Source: a virus
Lineage: Duplodnaviria; Heunggongvirae; Uroviricota; Caudoviricetes
IMG/VR virus record: IMGVR_UViG_2859799533_000003
Coordinates: 1 to 23,535 of that record
Length of the DNA: 23,535 nt
Strand: one strand, 5' to 3'
Below the pieces are notes generated by a model that did no database searches, was not told where the DNA came from, and worked only from the letters and a program-made list of their open reading frames with translations. A program made the position numbers and the translations under genes. Below, one piece after another: positions 1-23,535 of the stretch; the stretch's first letter is position 1; the number at the start of each line of letters is the position of its first letter.

Positions 1-662
<662 letters not shown>

Positions 663-4179: not shown

Positions 4180-4827
4180 GTGACTGTGAGAGCACTACTG
4201 ACCCCTGAAATTGCCCCGCGTATGGGGATCGTATTGTTCAGACCAGGTTCAGAGCTGATGCCCCTGTTTATGCAGGGGCGTGTCCTGCTGGAGCCTGAGC
4301 CGGAGCGTTATTCATCTTTCGCCAGTGGTGCCGTTCCGGCGGCATCACAACCGCTGGCGGATGATCCTGCCGTTCGGGCCGTGTTCCGCAATGAGGAAGT
4401 GATCCGTCGTGCTGGTGGCGTGGAATGTCTTGAAAGCTGGTTACTTCGTGAAAAAGGCTGCCAGTGGCCTCATTCCGACTGGCACAGCGAGAACATGACC
4501 ACAATGCGACACGCTCCGGGTGCAATCCGTCTGTGCTGGCACTGCGATAATCAGCTGCGCGATCAGTTCACGGAACGGCTGGAATCAATGGCAACGGATA
4601 ACTGTGCCCGCTGGGTGTTGTCTGTTGTGCGTCGGGATCTCGGTTTTGATGACAGTCACGTTGTGACAATGCCGGAACTGTGCTGGTGGCTGATTCGTAA
4701 TGATCTGGCGGATGCCTTACCGGAAAGTGCAGCCCGTAAGGCACTGAGATTACCGAAGCCTGTTGTGCCGACTGTTACCCGGGAAAGTGACCTTGTGCCT
4801 TCGGTTCCTGCCACCAGCATCATCTAG
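4180..4827 (+). CDS. hypothetical phage protein (215 aa, GTG start; Cys/His-rich central region)
   Basis: Long ORF in nin-like region; CQWPHSDWHSENMTTMRHAPGAIRLCWHCDN cluster; start codon uncertain (GTG 4180 or ATG 4222). Confidence 0.4.
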   Translation: MTVRALLTPEIAPRMGIVLFRPGSELMPLFMQGRVLLEPEPERYSSFASGAVPAASQPLADDPAVRAVFRNEEVIRRAGGVECLESWLLREKGCQWPHSDWHSENMTTMRHAPGAIRLCWHCDNQLRDQFTERLESMATDNCARWVLSVVRRDLGFDDSHVVTMPELCWWLIRNDLADALPESAARKALRLPKPVVPTVTRESDLVPSVPATSII

Positions 4828-4842
4828 GATAAGGCGAAAAAG

Positions 4843-5175
4843 GTGCTGGCGCTGAAAGTGGATCCGGAGTCGCCGGAGTCTTTTATGTTACGCCCAAAAC
4901 GTCGCCGCTGGGTTAATGAAAAGTACACGCGCTGGGTTAAGACACAGCCGTGTGCATGTTGTGGAAAGCCCGCTGATGATCCCCACCACCTGATAGGTCA
5001 CGGTCAGGGTGGAATGGGAACAAAAGCGCATGACCTTTTTGTGTTGCCTTTGTGCAGAAAACACCATGACGAACTGCATGCGGATACCGTGGCATTTGAA
5101 GAGAAGTATGGCTCCCAACTGGAGCTGATATTTCGTTTTATCGATCGCGCGCTGGCGATTGGTGTGCTGTCCTGA
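4843..5175 (+). CDS. DUF1364 (YbcO-like) Cys/His-motif protein, putative nuclease
   Basis: Motif pattern CACCG...HHLIGHGQGGMGTKAHDLFVLPLCRKHHDELH matches recalled YbcO family of lambdoid nin regions; GTG start at 4843 or ATG at 4885. Confidence 0.55.
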   Translation: MLALKVDPESPESFMLRPKRRRWVNEKYTRWVKTQPCACCGKPADDPHHLIGHGQGGMGTKAHDLFVLPLCRKHHDELHADTVAFEEKYGSQLELIFRFIDRALAIGVLS

Positions 5176-6135: not shown

Positions 6136-7185
6136 ATGCTTAATACTGTAAAAATATCCAGTTGTGAGTTAATCAACGCCGACTGCCTGGAATTTATCCG
6201 GTCGTTACCCGAAAATTCTGTTGACCTGATAGTCACGGACCCGCCGTACTTTAAAGTGAAGCCTGAGGGCTGGGATAACCAGTGGAAGGGCGACGATGAT
6301 TACCTGAAGTGGCTGGAGCAGTGTCTGGCGCAGTTCTGGCGGGTGCTGAAACCTGCCGGAAGTCTTTACCTGTTCTGTGGTCATCGCCTGGCATCTGATA
6401 TCGAAATCATGATGCGTGAACGCTTCAGTGTGCTGAACCATATTATCTGAGCGAAGCCGTCCGGACGCTGGAACGGATGCAACAAGGAAAGCCTGCGGGC
6501 GTATTTCCCCGCCACAGAGCGCATTCTGTTCGCGGAACATTATCAGGGGCCGTACCGCCCGAAAGATGATGGCTATGAGGCGAAGGGCAGGGTACTGAAA
6601 CAGCATGTGATGGCCCCGCTGATTTCTTACTTTCGTGATGCGCGAGCTGCCCTGGGGATAACGGCAAAACAGATTGCAGATGCCACAGGAAAGAAAAACA
6701 TGGTGTCGCACTGGTTCAGTGCCAGTCAGTGGCAGTTGCCGAATGAAAGCGATTATCTGAAATTACAGGCGCTGTTTGCCCGGGTGGCAGAAGAGAAACA
6801 TCAGCGGAGAGAACTGGAAAAGTCCCATTACCAACTGGTCAGCACATACAGTGAGCTGAGCCGGCAGTATATGGAACTGCTGAGTGAATATAAAAATTTG
6901 CGGAGGTATTTCGGTGTGACGGTGCAGGTGCCGTACACCGATGTGTGGACGTATAAACCGGTGCAGTACTATCCAGGGAAACATCCGTGCGAAAAACCGG
7001 CAGAAATGTTGCAGCAGATAATCAACGCGAGCAGTCGTCCGGGAGACCAGGTTGCAGATTTTTTTATGGGCTCAGGTTCAACGGTAAAAGCGGCACTGGC
7101 GCTCGGGCGTCGTGCGATTGGCGTTGAACTGGAGACCGGACGTTTTGAGCAGACAGTCAGGGAAGTTCAGGATTTAATCGTTTGA
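6136..7185 (+). pseudogene. DNA methyltransferase (N6A/N4C type: DPPY motif then FxGxG SAM motif) interrupted by an in-frame TGA at 6448-6450
   Basis: ORFs 6136-6450 and 6607-7185 are in the same frame and the frame stays open from 6451; motifs VTDPPYF (N-terminal) and FFMGSGST (C-terminal). Confidence 0.7.
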
Positions 7186-16757: not shown

Positions 16758-17780
16758 TTGTTTACGACCCGCCAGTTACTCGGTTATACCGAACAAAAAG
16801 TGAAATTCCGTGCGCTGTTTCTGGAGCTGTTTTTCCGCCGTACGGTGAATTTCCACACCGAAGAGGTGATGCTGGACAAAATTACCGGAAAAACGCCGGT
16901 GGCGGCCTATGTCTCCCCGATCGTTGAAGGAAAAGTGCTTCGCCATCGCGGTGGTGAAACCCGCGTGTTACGTCCGGGCTACGTCAAGCCGAAACACGAA
17001 TTTAATTACCAGCAGGCGGTTGAGCGCCTTCCTGGTGAAGATCCGGCTCAGCTGAACGACCCGGCCTACCGTCGTCTGCGTATCATTACCGATAACCTCA
17101 AACAGGAAGAGCACGCCATTGTCCAGGTGGAAGAAATGCAGGCGGTGAATGCCGTGCTGTATGGCAAATACACCATGGAAGGGGATCAGTTTGATACTGT
17201 CGAGGTGGATTTCGGGCGCTCTGAAGGAAATAACATTGAGCAGGCTGACGGTAAAAAATGGTCTGAGCAGGACCGTGATACGTTTGATCCGACGCATGAT
17301 ATTGACCTCTACTGCGATCAGGCCAGCGGCCTTGTGAATATCGCCATTATGGACGGTACGGTCTGGCGTCTGCTGAATGGCTTTAAGCTGTTCCGCGAAA
17401 AACTGGATACCCGTCGCGGCTCAAATTCACAACTCGAAACGGCAGTGAAAGATCTGGGCGCAGTGGTGTCCTTCAAGGGGTATTACGGCGATCTGGCCAT
17501 TGTGGTGGCGAAAACGTCTTATGTGGCAGAGGACGGTACCGAAAAACGTTATCTGCCGGAGGGCATGCTGGTGCTGGGGAATACGGCGGCAGAGGGGATT
17601 CGTTGCTATGGTGCCATTAAGGATGCACAGGCGTTGTCTGAAGGAGTGGTGGCTTCTTCCCGTTACCCGAAACACTGGCTGACCGTGGGCGATCCGTCCT
17701 GTGAATTCACCATGACGCAGTCCGCTCCGCTGATGGTGCTGCCGGATCCGGATGAGTTTGTGGTGGTACAGGTGAAATAA
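16758..17780 (+). CDS. E: major capsid protein (lambda gpE-like); 5' end abuts IS629, native start and RBS replaced
   Basis: 340-aa ORF collinear with recalled lambda E (FTTRQLL ... SPIVEGKVLRHRGG ... KLDTRRGSNSQLETAVKDLG ... SAPLMVLPDPDEFVVVQVK); ORF begins at TTG 3 bp after the IS629 terminus. Confidence 0.85.
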   Translation: MFTTRQLLGYTEQKVKFRALFLELFFRRTVNFHTEEVMLDKITGKTPVAAYVSPIVEGKVLRHRGGETRVLRPGYVKPKHEFNYQQAVERLPGEDPAQLNDPAYRRLRIITDNLKQEEHAIVQVEEMQAVNAVLYGKYTMEGDQFDTVEVDFGRSEGNNIEQADGKKWSEQDRDTFDPTHDIDLYCDQASGLVNIAIMDGTVWRLLNGFKLFREKLDTRRGSNSQLETAVKDLGAVVSFKGYYGDLAIVVAKTSYVAEDGTEKRYLPEGMLVLGNTAAEGIRCYGAIKDAQALSEGVVASSRYPKHWLTVGDPSCEFTMTQSAPLMVLPDPDEFVVVQVK

Positions 17781-17788
17781 TCCGTGAG

Positions 17789-17816
17789 CGGGGCGAAATG
17801 CCCCCGTGTCTTTTTT
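17789..17816 (+). terminator. terminator-like hairpin plus T6 directly after the capsid gene
   Basis: cggggc gaaat gcccc(c)g followed by tgtctttttt; lies between E stop and FI SD (aggagg). Confidence 0.45.
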
Positions 17817-17830
17817 CACAGGAGGCTGAG

Positions 17831-18214
17831 ATGGCAACAAAAGAAGAAAATCTGAATCGTCTTCGTCAACTGGCTGGCCTGCTGGGGCGCGAGGCGGATA
17901 TGTCGGGGAGTGCTGCGGATATTGCTCAACGTGTGTCTGAGTGGGAAGAGGAGCTTGCTGTTTCCCCGGAGGGCATTATGCACTCTGATGAGAGCGGGGC
18001 TGATCAAAATCACACAGACGATGGTGAGCAGTTGAACAACACGGATGCTCCGGATGATGTTAAAGCCGTCCGGGTACGGAAGTGCCTGCAAGTAATGGGG
18101 TATTGCCCGGAGACAGGTCGTCCCGTTGAGCTGGCGTTACGGGGTATGTGTGTTCTGGTGCCATCATCACTGGCAACGGCCATGATACAGCACGGAACGG
18201 CTGAATATGCGTGA
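17831..18214 (+). CDS. FI: DNA-packaging protein FI-like
   Basis: ATG 17831 with AGGAGG SD; acidic low-complexity middle and conserved position between E and FII; weak similarity to recalled lambda FI. Confidence 0.5.
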   Translation: MATKEENLNRLRQLAGLLGREADMSGSAADIAQRVSEWEEELAVSPEGIMHSDESGADQNHTDDGEQLNNTDAPDDVKAVRVRKCLQVMGYCPETGRPVELALRGMCVLVPSSLATAMIQHGTAEYA

Positions 18215-18558
18215 TTTTCAGAATGCCTTTGATGCTGCCCTCGCCGGGGTAGACAGTACGATCGTTGAAGTGATGGGGCTCTGTGCGCAGTTCACCTCGG
18301 GGCACAGTGTGGCAGCGAAGTTCAGGGGGTTTTTGATGATCCGGAGTCGCTGGGGTTTACCGGTGGCGGGGTCCGTATTGAAGGAAGCAGCCCGTCATTA
18401 TTTGTGCGGACGGATACGGTTCGTGCCGTGCGGCGTGGTGACACGCTGACCATTAATGGTGAGATATTCTGGGTGGATCGTGTTTCTCCGGATGACGGGG
18501 GCAGCTGTTATCTCTGGCTCAACCGTGGTCAACCACCCGCAGTTAACCGGCGACGATA
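18207..18558 (+). pseudogene. FII: head-tail joining protein FII-like, frameshifted (1-bp deletion in G5 run at 18325-18329)
   Basis: N-terminal frame (MRDFQNAFDAALAGVDSTI...TSG...RG) and C-terminal frame (VFDDPE...FWVDRVSPDDGGSCYLWLNRGQPPAVNRRR) both match recalled lambda FII but are offset by one base at agggggttttt. Confidence 0.7.
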
Positions 18559-18574
18559 AACGCAGGGTGAAATT

Positions 18575-19108
18575 ATGGCGATAAAAGGGCTTGATCAGGC
18601 GATTGACAATCTGAGCCGGGTTCGTAAAAACGCCATTCCGGCGGCTTCAGCAATGGCCATTAACCGCGTGGCCACAACGGCGATTAATCAGTCTTCATCA
18701 CAGGTTGCCCGGGAGACAAAGGTTCGCCGGAAACTGGTTAAGGAACGGTCCAGACTGAAACGGGCGACGGTCAGAAATCCGAATGCCAAAATTATCGTTA
18801 ACCGCGGTGATCTCCCTGTGATTAAGCTGGGGATCAGGATGCTGGGGCGTCGCCCGAACAGCATACTTAAAGCCGGTCAGCATCGGTATCAGCGGGCATT
18901 TATTCAGCGATTAAAAAATGGTCGCTGGCATGTCATGCAGCGTGTGGCCGGGAAAAACCGTTACCCCATTGATGTGGTGAAAATCCCGATGGCGGCCCCA
19001 CTGAAACAGGCATTTGATGAGAATGTTGACCGTATCCGGCGTGAACGCCTGCCTAAAGAACTGGCATACGCGCTGAAACAACAACTGAGGATTGCAATAA
19101 AACGATGA
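18575..19108 (+). CDS. Z: minor tail protein Z-like
   Basis: 177-aa ORF, near-collinear with recalled lambda Z (MAIKGL.QA..NLSR...INRVA...SQVARETKVRRKLVKER.RLKRATV...RWHVMQRVAGKNRYPIDVVKIPMA). Confidence 0.85.
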   Translation: MAIKGLDQAIDNLSRVRKNAIPAASAMAINRVATTAINQSSSQVARETKVRRKLVKERSRLKRATVRNPNAKIIVNRGDLPVIKLGIRMLGRRPNSILKAGQHRYQRAFIQRLKNGRWHVMQRVAGKNRYPIDVVKIPMAAPLKQAFDENVDRIRRERLPKELAYALKQQLRIAIKR

Positions 19109-19499
19109 AACACACTGACATTCGTGCCGCAGTGCTGGATGCGCTCGAGCAGCATGAACACGGGCGACGCTGTTTGATGGTCGCCCCGTTGTTTTTGACG
19201 AAGAGGATTTTCCTGCGATCGCGGTTTATCTGACGGATGCAGAGTATACCGGTGAAGAGCTGGATGCAGATACCTGGCGGGCCACGCTGCATATTGAGGT
19301 GTTTTTACCGGCACAGGTACCGGATTCAGAGCTTGATCAGTGGATGGAAAGCCGGATTTACCCGGCGATGACCGCGATCCCGGCACTGGCAGGACTGATT
19401 ACCACGATGGTTACGCAGGGCTATGAGTATCGTCGTGATGACGATATGGCGTTATGGAGTTCTGCAGATCTGACTTATTCCATTACATACGAGATGTGA
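19105..19499 (+). pseudogene. U: minor tail protein U-like, frameshifted (1-bp deletion in G run at 19162-19164)
   Basis: N-terminus MKHTDIRAAVLDALEQHEHG in one frame; remainder (TLFDGRPVVFDEEDFPAIAVYLTDAEYTGEELD...LTYSITYEM) in the adjacent frame; both match recalled lambda U. Confidence 0.75.
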
Positions 19500-19506
19500 G
19501 GACGAT

Positions 19507-20258
19507 ATGGCAACACCAAATCCCTTGAGCCGGTAAAAGGTGCCGGTACCACTCTGTGGGTTTACAACGGCAAGGGTGATGCTTATGCAAACCCGTTGTC
19601 AGACGATGACTGGCAGCGACTGGCTAAGGTGAAGGATCTGACGCCGGGCGAGATGACGGCAGAATCCTACGATGATAACTACCTGGATGATGAAGACGCG
19701 GACTGGACCGCGACCGGGCAGGGGCAGAAATCTGCAGGTGATACCAGTTTTACGCTGGCCTGGAAACCGGGAGAGGAAGGCCAGAAAGGGCTTATAGGCT
19801 GGTTTGAAAGCGGCGATGTCCGGGCCTATAAAATCCGTTTTCCGAATGGCACGGTGGATGTGTTTCGTGGCTGGGTCAGCAGTATCGGTAAGGCCGTGAC
19901 GGCGAAAGAAGTGATCACCCGCACGGTGAAAGTCACTAACGTGGGTAAACCTTCTGTAGCGGAAGAACGCAGCAAAATTACGCCGGTCAGTGCGATTAAG
20001 GTGACGCCGACATCCGGTACGGTGGCAAAAGGGAAAACAACCACCCTGACGGTTTCTTTTGAGCCGGAAAGTGCAACCGACAAGACGTTCAGAGCGGTTT
20101 CCGCCGATCCGTCGAAAGCCACCATTAGTGTGAAAGATATGACAATTACGGTAAACGGCGTGGCGACAGGTAAGGTGCAGATCCCTGTGGTGAGCGGAAA
20201 TGGTCAGTTCGCCGCAGTGGCTGAAGTCACCGTTACTGAAGCGGGCGCTGCAGGGTAA
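19507..20258 (+). pseudogene. V: major tail protein V-like, frameshifted near the N-terminus (1-bp deletion in C run at 19530-19531)
   Basis: MATPNPLS then stop; the adjacent frame continues [41 protein letters not shown]... matching recalled lambda V through to the stop at 20258. Confidence 0.75.
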
Positions 20259-20271
20259 ACGGAGGTAATAC

Positions 20272-20703
20272 ATGTTTCTGAAAACAGAACAATTTGAATA
20301 TAACGGTGTGTCTGTCACGCTTTCCGAATTGTCTGCGCTGCAGCGTATCGAGCATCTTGCCCTCCTGAAACGGCGTGCAGAACAGGCAGAATCCTGCGGC
20401 AACCTGCAGGTAAGCGTGGAAGATCTCGTCAGAACCGGCGCGTTTCTGGTGGCGATGTCCCTGTGGCATAACCATCCACAGAAAACGCAGTCACCGTCAA
20501 TGAATGAGGCCGTGATGAAGATAGAGCAGGAAGTGCTCACCACCTGGCCTGCCGATGCCATTGCCCGGGCGGAAGACGTGGTGTTGTGCCTGTCCGGGAT
20601 GATCGAAGCTGTTCGTCCGGATACTGATATTACTGAAGTGGCGAAAAATAACACGCTGACTGATGATGATTTTTCTGCGGGAAAGTCTTCGACGGCGAGC
20701 TGA
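20272..20703 (+). CDS. G: tail assembly chaperone G-like
   Basis: 143-aa ORF with GGAGG SD; matches recalled lambda G (MFLKTE.FE.NGV.VTLSELSALQRIEHLAL ... AMSLWHNHPQKTQ.PSMNEAV). Confidence 0.85.
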   Translation: MFLKTEQFEYNGVSVTLSELSALQRIEHLALLKRRAEQAESCGNLQVSVEDLVRTGAFLVAMSLWHNHPQKTQSPSMNEAVMKIEQEVLTTWPADAIARAEDVVLCLSGMIEAVRPDTDITEVAKNNTLTDDDFSAGKSSTAS

Positions 20704-21143
20704 ACTTTGCCCTCAGACTGGCGCGTGAGATGGGGAGACTCGACTGGCGCGCCATGCTTGCCGGGATGACATCCACCGAATATGCCGACTGGCACCGTTT
20801 TTACCGCACGCATTATTTTCAGGATACCCAGCTGGATATGCATTTTTCCGGGCTGACGTACGCTGTACTCAGCCTGTTTTTTTGCGATCCGGATATGCAT
20901 CCCTCTGATTTCAGTCTGCTTGTCCCCCGGCATGAGGAAGAGCAGGTGGAGAGGCCGGATGAGGACAAAATGCTGATGCAGAAAGCGGCAGGACTTGCCG
21001 GAGGCGTCCGGTTCGGTGGGGACGGAGGGCGCGATATTTTATCGTCTGCGGATGTGGCGGATGTCATGGTGGATGATGCCGCATTAATGATGGCTTCAGC
21101 GGGGATTCCGGGAGGTGTGAGATATGTCCCAGCCGGTTGGTGA
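20272..21143 (+). CDS. GT: G-T fusion tail assembly protein made by programmed -1 frameshift
   Basis: Slippery heptamer G GGA AAG in the G frame at 20679-20685; -1 frame continues GKVFDGELNFALRLAREMGRLDWRAMLAGM... matching recalled lambda T. Confidence 0.7.
20679..20685 (+). other. programmed -1 ribosomal frameshift slippery site (GGGAAAG)
   Basis: Heptamer in register with G codons (G GGA AAG), 6 codons before the G stop; conserved lambda-type G/GT recoding signal. Confidence 0.7.
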
Positions 21144-22873
21144 TCTTGTTATTGACCTGAGTCTGGATGCTGTCCGTTTCGATGAGCAGATGAGCCGGGT
21201 AAGGCGTCATTTTTCAGGTCTGGATACCGACGCCAGAAAAACCGCCAGTGCTGTTGAACAGGGCCTGAGCCGCCAGGCGCTGGCTGCACAAAAAGCCGGG
21301 ATTTCCGTCGGGCAGTATAAAGCGGCCATGCGAACCCTGCCCGCACAGTTTACGGATATCGCCACGCAGCTTGCAGGTGGTCAGAATCCCTGGCTGATCC
21401 TGCTGCAACAGGGCGGTCAGGTGAAGGACTCCTTCGGCGGGATGATCCCCATGTTCAGGGGGCTTGCCGGTGCGATCACCCTGCCGATGGTCGGGGTCAC
21501 CTCGCTGGCGGTGGCGACAGGTGCGCTGGTGTACGCCTGGTACCAGGGAGATTCCACGCTTTCAGCGTTTAATAAAACCCTGGTTCTTTCCGGTAATCAG
21601 TCCGGACTGACTGCCGATCGTATGCTGACTCTCTCAAGAGCCGGGCAGGCAGCAGGGCTGACGTTTAACCAGGCGAAAGAGTCACTGGCAGCCCTGGTGA
21701 ATGCCGGTGTGCGTGGTGGTGAACAGTTTGATGCCATCAACCAGAGTGTCGCGCGTTTTGCGTCTGCATCCGGTGTGGAGGTGGATAAAGTCGCTGAAGC
21801 CTTCGGGAAGCTGACCACTGACCCGACGTCGGGACTGATGGCGATGGCGCGCCAGTTCCGTAACGTGACGGCAGAGCAGATTGCGTATGTTGCACAGCTG
21901 CAGCGTTCCGGAGACGAGGCCGGGGCATTGCAGGCGGCGAACGATATCGCCACGAAAGGCTTTGATGAGCAGACCCGTCGCCTGAAAGAAAACATGGGAA
22001 CACTGGAGACCTGGGCGGATAAAACAGGGAAGGCATTCAAATCGATGTGGGATGCCATTCTGGATATCGGTCGTCCTGAATCCTCAGCGGATATGCTCGC
22101 CAGTGCGCAGAAGGCATTTGATGAGGCGGATAAAAAATGGCAGTGGTACCAGAGCCGGAGCCAGCGCCGGGGAAAGACCTCCTCTTTTCGTGCGAACCTT
22201 CAGGGGGCATGGGATGACCGGGAAAATGCCCGTCTGGGTCTGGCAGCGGCCACGCTGCAGTCGGATATGGAAAAAGCCGGTGAACTGGCGGCAAGGGACC
22301 GGGCTGAGCGTGAGGCGTCACAGCTGAAGTATACCGGAGAGGCGCAGAAGGCGTATGAGCGCCTGCAGACGCCGCTGGATAAATATACCGCCCGTCAGAA
22401 AGAGCTGAATAAGGCCCTGAAAGACGGAAAAATCCTGCAGGCGGATTGCAACACGCTGATGGCGTCGGCAAAAAAGGATTATGAATAGACGCTGAAAAAG
22501 CCGTCCGGTGTGAAGGTGTCTGCCGGTGAGCGCCAGGAAGACCGGGCGCATGCAGCCATGCTGGCGCTTGAAACCGAGCTCAGGACGCTGGAAAAACACA
22601 GCGGTGTGAATGAGAAAATCAGCCAGCAGCGCCGGGATTTATGGGAAGCGGAAAATCAGTATGTGGTCCTGAAAGAGGCCGCCACGAAACGGCAGTTATC
22701 TGAGCAGGAAAAATCCCTGCTGGCTCATGAGAAAGAGACGCTGGAGTACAAACGCCAGCTGGCTGAGCTGGGAGACAAGATTGAACACCAGAAGCGGCTG
22801 AATGAGCTGGCACAGCAGGCGGCGCGGTTTGAACAGCAGCAGAGCGCGAAGCAGGCGGCAATCAGCGCAAAAG
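21124..22873 (+). pseudogene. H: tail tape measure protein H-like: in-frame TAG at 22486-22488 and 3' truncation by the IS911-like element at 22874
   Basis: ORF 21124-22488 (N-terminus MSQPVGDLVIDLSLDAVRFDEQMSRV... as in lambda H) continues in the same frame after the TAG; the frame then runs into the IS terminus (tgaagtggtcaac...) at 22874. Confidence 0.75.

Positions 22874-23535
<662 letters not shown>

What the first reader, a model, noticed from the sequence alone, without database searches (positions are those of the whole stretch)
21124..22873. Tape measure gene carries an in-frame TAG and is then truncated by the IS911-like element
The H-like ORF is open from 21124, interrupted by TAG at 22486-22488, continues in frame (TLKKPSGVKVSAGERQ...), and is cut at 22874 by the IS terminus. 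That is two independent inactivating events in one gene; the tail cannot be assembled.
Basis: seen in the sequence. Interest (0 to 1): 0.4.

Follow-up and report, generated by a model that had tools for sequence, protein, structure and literature searches.

The report
Dead phage tape-measure gene remnant
This is the broken front two-thirds of a lambda-type phage tail "tape measure" gene, stopped early by a point mutation and cut off where an IS911 mobile element replaced the rest of the tail genes; it is ordinary prophage decay in an IS-rich E. coli/Shigella chromosome.

Summary
Window 21124-22873 is the 5' part of a lambda gpH-type tape measure gene. It is 99.7% identical in DNA to intact 857-codon genes in E. 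coli prophages. Codon 455 is TAG where the intact relatives have TCG (Ser), a single C-to-A change at 22487. Homology to H ends exactly at 22873 (codon 583 plus one base), and 22874 is the first base of the right inverted repeat of a complete 1249-bp IS911.

The window matches GenBank CP026866.1 at 100%. Reading past the window edge there shows this is not a simple insertion. The far side of IS911 abuts the last 22 codons of a tail-fibre-assembly gene remnant, then potB. There is no target-site duplication. So about 12.6 kb has been lost: the H 3' third, M, L, K, I, J, lom, stf and tfa.

The same TAG occurs in about ten independent assemblies. The H/IS911 junction is seen in every one long enough to reach it, and both IS911 junctions are identical in the five that span the element. 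None of 5,426 complete E. coli genomes has the H/IS911 junction or an identical copy of the 101 bases around the TAG. The lesions are therefore real, inherited mutations, not sequencing errors.

Novelty is nil and interest is low.

The parts
21124..22488 (+). 5' part of the lambda gpH-type tape measure gene, codons 1-454 plus a premature TAG (codon 455, 22486-22488). The mutation is C->A at 22487 (TCG Ser -> TAG).
   Evidence: Pfam TMP_2 (PF06791) at residues 54-256, E 6e-69
22489..22873 (+). In-frame continuation of H (codons 456-583 plus 1 nt). It is untranslated downstream of the TAG and still nearly identical to intact H (1 difference, 22506, from the DA33133 gene in these 385 nt).
   Evidence: weak TMP_4 match
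22510..22947 (+). Chimeric 145-codon ORF (GTG start). It consists of H residues 463-583 fused to 24 codons read out of the IS911 right end. It is a by-product of the junction and is called as a gene in six assemblies.
22874..23535 (-). Right end of IS911 (IRR starting TGAAGTGGTCAACAAAAACTGGCCACC at 22874, and the 3' 217 codons of orfB on the minus strand). The element continues 587 bp beyond the window, 1249 bp in all.
   Evidence: (rve domain)
20272..21143 (+). Tail assembly chaperone genes G (20272-20703) and T (20730-21143), with the -1 slippery heptamer GGGAAAG at 20679-20685. They lie immediately upstream of H and overlap its start, which fixes the identity of the gene by position.
1..662 (+). 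Second copy of the IS911 right end, inverted relative to the first (1 mismatch in 662 nt). Its outer flank in the source chromosome is yecN-cmoA-cmoB, not the H remainder.

Best explanation
The region is a pseudogene remnant of the tape measure gene (lambda H orthologue) of a lambdoid prophage integrated at potB in an IS-rich Escherichia/Shigella chromosome (record CP026866.1). Two separate mutations hit the gene. The first is a C-to-A transversion that turned Ser455 (TCG) into an amber stop. The second is an IS911-associated deletion that joined H codon 583 to the last 22 codons of the tail-fibre-assembly gene remnant next to attR, removing about 12.6 kb of distal tail genes. The deletion probably arose in one of two ways: recombination between two directly repeated IS911 copies, or an adjacent deletion made by one copy. 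That step is inferred from the missing target duplication and the collinear orientation of the two flanks. Both lesions were present in the common ancestor of a small lineage and have been inherited since. The remnant has no role in virion assembly. At most it encodes a 454-residue N-terminal fragment lacking the C-terminal domain and the C-terminal helix that, in lambda, anchors gpH in the tail tip.
For: Shown directly:
- TAG versus TCG, and the exact end of H homology at 22873.
- The IS911 identity of the adjoining sequence, and its complete structure with IRL, IRR, orfA, A6G and an open orfB.
- The window is 100% identical to CP026866.1.
- The far flank of IS911 is GGTGTTGCTGAACCG..., encoding VLLNRVDTSTAPDIEWPTSPAE*, which matches the last 20 positions of Pfam Caudo_TAP. 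It is followed by potB, potA, pepT and roxA.
- The flanking triplets are AAG and GGT, so there is no target duplication.
- Identical left and right junctions occur in CP026866.1, CP026762.1, CP026867.1, CP026795.1 and AMKC01000100.1. The left junction also occurs in drafts LPTH01000245.1 and LPTT01000272.1 and in a Logan assembly of SRR8186700.
- The exact 454-aa product is also found in assemblies of SRR8186739, SRR5312219 and SRR5312128.
- An intact prophage of the same type at the same potB site in E. coli TUM1586 carries H-M-L-K-I-J-lom-stf-tfa between the two breakpoints, spanning 12,621 bp.
- The intact relative has TMP_2 plus Tape_meas_lam_C (residues 631-705) and aligns 1-857 to lambda gpH 8iyk_H.

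From the literature: lambda gpH residues 818-842 form the coiled coil held by gpI in the tail-tip lumen, and gpH sets tail length (PMC10721106). IS911 is one of five IS expanded in all Shigella species and drives pseudogene formation there (PMC7373316).
Against: - The order of the two events cannot be determined, because every assembly found carries both.
- The mechanism of the deletion (two-copy recombination versus one-copy adjacent deletion) is inferred, not shown.
- I could not scan the whole source genome. A displaced copy of the H 3' part next to some other IS911 copy is not formally excluded.
- The organism name of CP026866.1 was not retrievable with the tools. Shigella is my inference, based on the IS content (IS911, IS600, ISSso6), the absence of the junction from all complete RefSeq E. 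coli, and my recollection of that accession series.
Confidence: 0.93

Rival explanations
1. The TAG is a sequencing or assembly error, and the gene is interrupted only by the IS.
For: The record does contain four single-base homopolymer deletions (17789, 18298, 19161, 19521) that sister genomes lack. These could be long-read errors.
Against: The TAG is a substitution, not a homopolymer indel. It is present in four complete genomes, three drafts and several independent short-read (Logan) assemblies.
Confidence: 0.01
2. This is a simple IS911 insertion into H: the 3' remainder of H lies immediately beyond the IS, and the gene would be restored by precise excision.
For: The window alone shows only one IS end, so from the window this reading is possible.
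Against: In the source chromosome and four other assemblies that span the element, the far flank is the last 22 codons of a tfa remnant followed by potB. There is no 3-bp duplication.
Confidence: 0.01
3. H was split by an inversion between inverted IS911 copies, so the H 3' part and distal tail genes survive elsewhere in the chromosome rather than being deleted.
For: The window is bounded by two inverted IS911 copies. In this strain the left copy joins the prophage to a distant chromosomal neighbourhood (yecN-cmoA-cmoB-torZY), so IS911-linked rearrangement has happened here.
Against: - The left copy's outer flank is yecN, not H.
- The tfa remnant beyond the right copy is collinear and in the same orientation as in intact prophages at potB, as expected for a deletion.
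- Sister genomes with unrearranged head genes upstream have the identical H/IS911/tfa junction.
Confidence: 0.04
4. The 454-residue N-terminal fragment is a functional, selectively retained product (for example a domesticated prophage protein) rather than junk.
For: The fragment, with intact G and T upstream, is unchanged in several genomes of the lineage.
Against: - The lineage is very shallow, with 0-2 substitutions in the H region between the assemblies compared (CP026867.1 also has two 1-nt deletions), so conservation carries no weight.
- CP026867.1 already shows further indels inside the fragment.
- 3 of the 5 differences from the nearest intact gene are non-synonymous or nonsense.
- Neighbouring phage genes are decaying too.
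Confidence: 0.02

Closest known systems
Bacteriophage lambda gpH (tail tape measure protein; PDB 8IYK chain H; Pfam TMP_2 + Tape_meas_lam_C)
   Same: The intact 857-aa relative that is 99.7% identical in DNA to the window aligns over its full length with lambda gpH. The gene order Z-U-V-G-T-H, the overlap of the H start with T, and the G/T slippery site are all as in lambda.
   Different: The window copy stops at codon 455, and its DNA ends at codon 583. The Tape_meas_lam_C domain (residues 631-705) and the C-terminal helix that sits in the tail tip are absent. It is equivalent to a classical lambda H amber mutant combined with a deletion. That comparison rests on my own knowledge of lambda genetics.
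IS911 (IS3 family), as expanded in Shigella genomes (Hawkey et al. 2020, PMC7373316)
   Same: It has terminal repeats beginning TGAAGTGG, a 100-codon orfA, an A AAA AAG frameshift site, orfB with an rve DDE domain, and a length of 1249 bp. It is 100% identical over the 403 nt compared to regions annotated as IS911-family transposase. Its role as an agent of gene inactivation and deletion matches what is described for Shigella.
   Different: This copy lacks a flanking target duplication because it marks a deletion junction.
Cryptic or defective lambdoid prophages of E. coli and Shigella truncated by IS elements (e.g. the K-12 cryptic prophages; comparison from my own knowledge)
   Same: It is a lambdoid prophage at a standard integration site (potB) that has lost its distal tail genes and is accumulating IS insertions, nonsense mutations and frameshifts.
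   Different: Nothing of kind. Only the particular breakpoints and the host lineage differ.

Membership tests
Lambda gpH-type tape measure protein | N-terminal TMP_2 domain (PF06791) | tested here: met
   Residues 54-256 of the 454-aa product, E 6.2e-69, 232 bits against a cut-off of 30.2.
Lambda gpH-type tape measure protein | C-terminal Tape_meas_lam_C domain (PF09718) and the C-terminal tip-anchoring helix | tested here: not met
   The domain is present at residues 631-705 of the intact relative. The window's H DNA ends at codon 583. Lambda residues 818-842 sit in the tail tip.
Lambda gpH-type tape measure protein | Uninterrupted reading frame of about 850 codons | tested here: not met
   TAG at codon 455, and truncation after codon 583. 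It is therefore a pseudogene of this family, not a functional member.
Lambda gpH-type tape measure protein | Position directly downstream of the G/GT chaperone genes in the tail module | tested here: met
   G is at 20272-20703 and T at 20730-21143, with the H start at 21124 overlapping T. The order matches the annotated relatives.
IS911 (IS3 family) | Nucleotide identity to annotated IS911 | tested here: met
   100% over the 403 nt compared, to regions that PGAP annotates as 'IS3-like element IS911 family transposase'. The full 1249 bp was not compared with the ISfinder reference sequence.
IS911 (IS3 family) | Imperfect terminal inverted repeats, orfA and orfB in the 0/-1 frames with an A6G slippery site, and a DDE (rve) domain | tested here: met
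   The ends read TGAAGTGGCACAC...(IRL) and ...GTTGACCACTTCA (IRR). orfA has 100 codons, AAAAAAG is at nt 324, orfB is open, and rve scores E 7.5e-32.
IS911 (IS3 family) | Short direct target duplication flanking a simple insertion | tested here: not met
   The flanks are AAG and GGT in all five assemblies that span the element. This marks the copy as a rearrangement or deletion junction. It does not affect identification of the IS itself.

The most novel reading that the evidence does not exclude
The most novel reading not excluded is this. The 454-residue N-terminal tape measure fragment is still translated, since its start remains overlapped with intact G/T chaperone genes. It has then been co-opted by the host, for example as a decoy or trigger in phage-host conflict. 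Nothing observed here points to this. It is only not excluded.
Probability: 0.02. Interest if true: 0.4.

Novelty: already known. Interest (0 to 1): 0.08.

Why it matters
It matters little beyond annotation. The region should be labelled as a tape measure pseudogene (nonsense plus 3' truncation) at an IS911-bounded deletion junction, inside a defective prophage at potB. The chimeric 145-codon ORF should not be annotated as a gene. The shared TAG and the two shared IS911 junctions are usable as lineage markers for the small clade that carries them. The case is one more example of IS-driven prophage and genome decay of the kind documented in Shigella.

Tried and rejected
- **Organism name.** I looked for the names of the assemblies (CP026866, CP026762, CP026795, the GCA numbers, and the LPTT/LPTH/AMKC prefixes) in the paper library and in the supplements of Hawkey et al. 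2020. There were no hits. The listing of cluster members gave no accession or name for the exact 454-aa and 145-aa products.
- **The TAG in a different context.** I searched for a 35-nt exact string around the TAG in GTDB species representatives and in JGI metagenome contigs. There were no matches in either. I therefore found no genome with the TAG but without the IS, and the order of events stays open.
- **Shared junction or TAG in complete E. coli.** No place covers the junction query. No place is identical over the 101 nt around the TAG, and the best four have intact 857-codon genes. The roughly 500 places at 95-97% identity were not inspected base by base.
- **Sequencing error for the TAG.** Considered and rejected; see the rival explanations.
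- **Amber suppression or read-through.** Considered and set aside, because the gene lacks its 3' third in any case.
- **Searches not run.** I did not run the large protein searches or structure prediction. The DNA-level evidence was already decisive.

Full report
**1. The observation**

The ORF list and the raw sequence show an ATG-initiated ORF at 21124-22488 of 454 codons. It ends in TAG at 22486-22488. The same frame then continues open as TLKKPSGVKVSAGERQ....

A megablast of 21124-22873 finds this stretch under annotated tape measure genes throughout E. coli and its lambdoid phages. It matches 144 phage records. It also covers at least 80% of its length in 3,694 of 5,426 complete E. coli genomes, with best identities of 99.5-99.7%.

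I compared the window base by base with two intact genes: E. coli DA33133 (L001, 857 codons) and phage PhiR12_1 (L002). They differ from the window at 5 and 8 positions of 1750.
- One of those differences is A22487 versus C, which converts TCG (Ser455) into TAG.
- The others against DA33133 are K185R, C442Y and two synonymous changes.

Homology ends exactly at 22873, which is codon 583 plus one base. The relatives continue GCCCGCGGCC..., whereas the window continues TGAAGTGGTCAACAAAAACTGGCCACC.

**2. What the gene is**

- The 454-residue product carries the Pfam TMP_2 domain (E 6e-69).
- The intact relative additionally has Tape_meas_lam_C at residues 631-705.
- The intact relative aligns over residues 1-857 with lambda gpH of PDB 8IYK (1423 bits).
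- Upstream lie Z, U, V, G and T in lambda order. The H start overlaps the end of T, and the G/T slippery heptamer GGGAAAG is at 20679-20685.

This is a true lambda H orthologue.

**3. What the IS is**

The sequence from 22874 onwards is 100% identical, over the 403 nt included in that query, to regions that PGAP annotates as "IS3-like element IS911 family transposase". The 217-codon ORF on the minus strand carries the rve DDE domain.

Reading past the window in the source record gives a complete 1249-bp element. It has both terminal repeats, a 100-codon orfA, the A AAA AAG slippery site at nt 324, and an open orfB frame.

**4. Source and surroundings**

An exact-sequence look-up of the 454-aa product places the window in CP026866.1 (GCA_002949955.1). 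Window 11124-23535 equals that record at 100%.

Beyond the IS911 the chromosome reads GGTGTTGCTGAACCGTGTTGATACATCAACTGCACCTGATATTGAGTGGCCGACTTCACCTGCAGAGTAA. This encodes VLLNRVDTSTAPDIEWPTSPAE*, which matches the last 20 positions of the tail-fibre-assembly family Caudo_TAP. It is followed by potB, potA, pepT and roxA.

The triplets flanking the IS are AAG and GGT, so there is no target duplication.

In E. coli TUM1586 an intact prophage of the same type sits at the same potB junction.
- The 701 nt spanning the tfa remnant, attR and potB are 99.1% identical.
- It carries H, M, L, K, I, J, lom, stf, tfa and a methyltransferase between the two points that IS911 joins here.
- That interval is 12,621 bp.

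The IS911 therefore marks a deletion junction, not a simple insertion. The 3' remainder of H is not on the other side.

The window's other end (1-662) is a second, inverted IS911 right end. Its outer flank is yecN-cmoA-cmoB-torZ-torY, again not H.

**5. Are the lesions real?**

The exact 454-aa product, which requires the TAG, was found in:
- three complete genomes: CP026866.1, CP026762.1 and CP026795.1;
- the draft LPTT01000272.1;
- Logan assemblies of SRR8186700, SRR8186739, SRR5312219 and SRR5312128.

The chimeric 145-codon ORF created by the H/IS911 junction was found in six assemblies. These include two further records, CP026867.1 and AMKC01000100.1.

All five assemblies that span the element have identical left and right junctions.

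By contrast, no complete RefSeq E. coli genome has the junction. None has an identical copy of the 101 nt around the TAG either. The four best matches are intact 2574-nt coding sequences, and the one read base by base has TCG.

A 35-nt string containing the TAG is absent from GTDB species representatives and from JGI metagenome contigs.

The TAG is thus a genuine mutation inherited within a narrow lineage. Sequencing error is excluded.

**6. How it works, or rather does not**

In lambda, gpH forms a trimer inside the tube, sets tail length, and ends in a C-terminal coiled coil (residues 818-842) held by gpI in the tip lumen (PMC10721106).

The window's gene can yield at most residues 1-454. 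Even with read-through it would lack everything after residue 583. The partner genes M, L, K, I and J are also gone. No tail can be built from this prophage.

The likely history is as follows.
- A lambdoid prophage integrated at potB. This is shown by the shared attR junction with 918 E. coli genomes.
- During the IS expansion typical of Shigella-like lineages (PMC7373316), IS911 became associated with a 12.6-kb deletion from H to the terminal tfa remnant. This arose either by recombination between two direct copies or as an adjacent deletion. That step is inferred.
- Independently, a C-to-A change created the amber codon.

The order of the two events is unknown, because every genome found has both.

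Decay is continuing.
- CP026867.1 has extra indels in H.
- CP026795.1 has split terminase and portal genes.
- The window's own record has lost the terminase-to-decoration genes to an IS cluster: IS600, ISSso6, an IS66-family element and another IS3-family element.
- The window's record also shows single-base deletions in FII, U and V.

**7. Comparison with what is known, and verdict**

Everything here belongs to well-described categories: a lambda gpH orthologue, IS911, and a defective lambdoid prophage in an IS-rich Escherichia/Shigella chromosome.

The organism name could not be retrieved with the tools. "Shigella" is my inference from the IS content, from the absence of the junction in complete E. 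coli genomes, and from my recollection of the accession series.

The finding is correct but ordinary, so I score interest at 0.08 and novelty as "already known".

Noticed in passing
window 1-662 and 22874-23535; L013 1-9700; L003 12413-21365: The window is bounded by two inverted copies of the IS911 right end (1 mismatch). Outside the left copy lies yecN-cmoA-cmoB-torZ-torY-cutC-yecM-argS. Outside the right copy lies the tfa remnant followed by potB-potA-pepT-roxA. Sister genomes have intact phage head genes upstream instead, so this strain carries an additional IS-linked chromosomal rearrangement.
   Followed up: partly
window 17789, 18298, 19161, 19521: Four single-base deletions in G or C homopolymer runs, relative to two sister complete genomes and an E. 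coli reference prophage. One is intergenic (E/FI). The others frameshift FII, U and V. They could be real decay or long-read homopolymer errors in this record.
   Followed up: partly
window 9950-16755: A cluster of insertion sequences: IS600, ISSso6 (IS110 family), an IS66-family tnpA/tnpB/tnpC unit and a second IS3-family element, with an inverted Nu1 fragment. The terminase, portal, protease and decoration genes present in sister genomes are missing here.
   Followed up: partly
window 22510-22947: A chimeric 145-codon ORF made of H residues 463-583 plus 24 codons read out of the IS911 end. Gene callers report it as a protein in six assemblies. It is a junction artefact.
   Followed up: yes
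window 20679-20685: The lambda-type G/GT -1 frameshift heptamer GGGAAAG is retained near the end of gene G, and G and T are still intact although the gene they serve is dead.
   Followed up: no
window 4180-5175 and 6136-7185 (L013 13186-14175 and 15136-16185): Other phage genes in the window appear split compared with relatives. The DUF968 protein is 213 + 110 aa against 329 aa. The N6/N4 DNA methyltransferase is 104 + 161 aa against 352 aa. Just outside the window, potA is split (245 + 127 aa against 378 aa).
   Followed up: no
L020 (CP026867.1), window-equivalent 22169 and 22203: This sister genome has two further 1-nt deletions 34 nt apart inside the H remnant. They break the 454-codon ORF into 363 + 73 codons, showing either ongoing decay or assembly error.
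   Followed up: no
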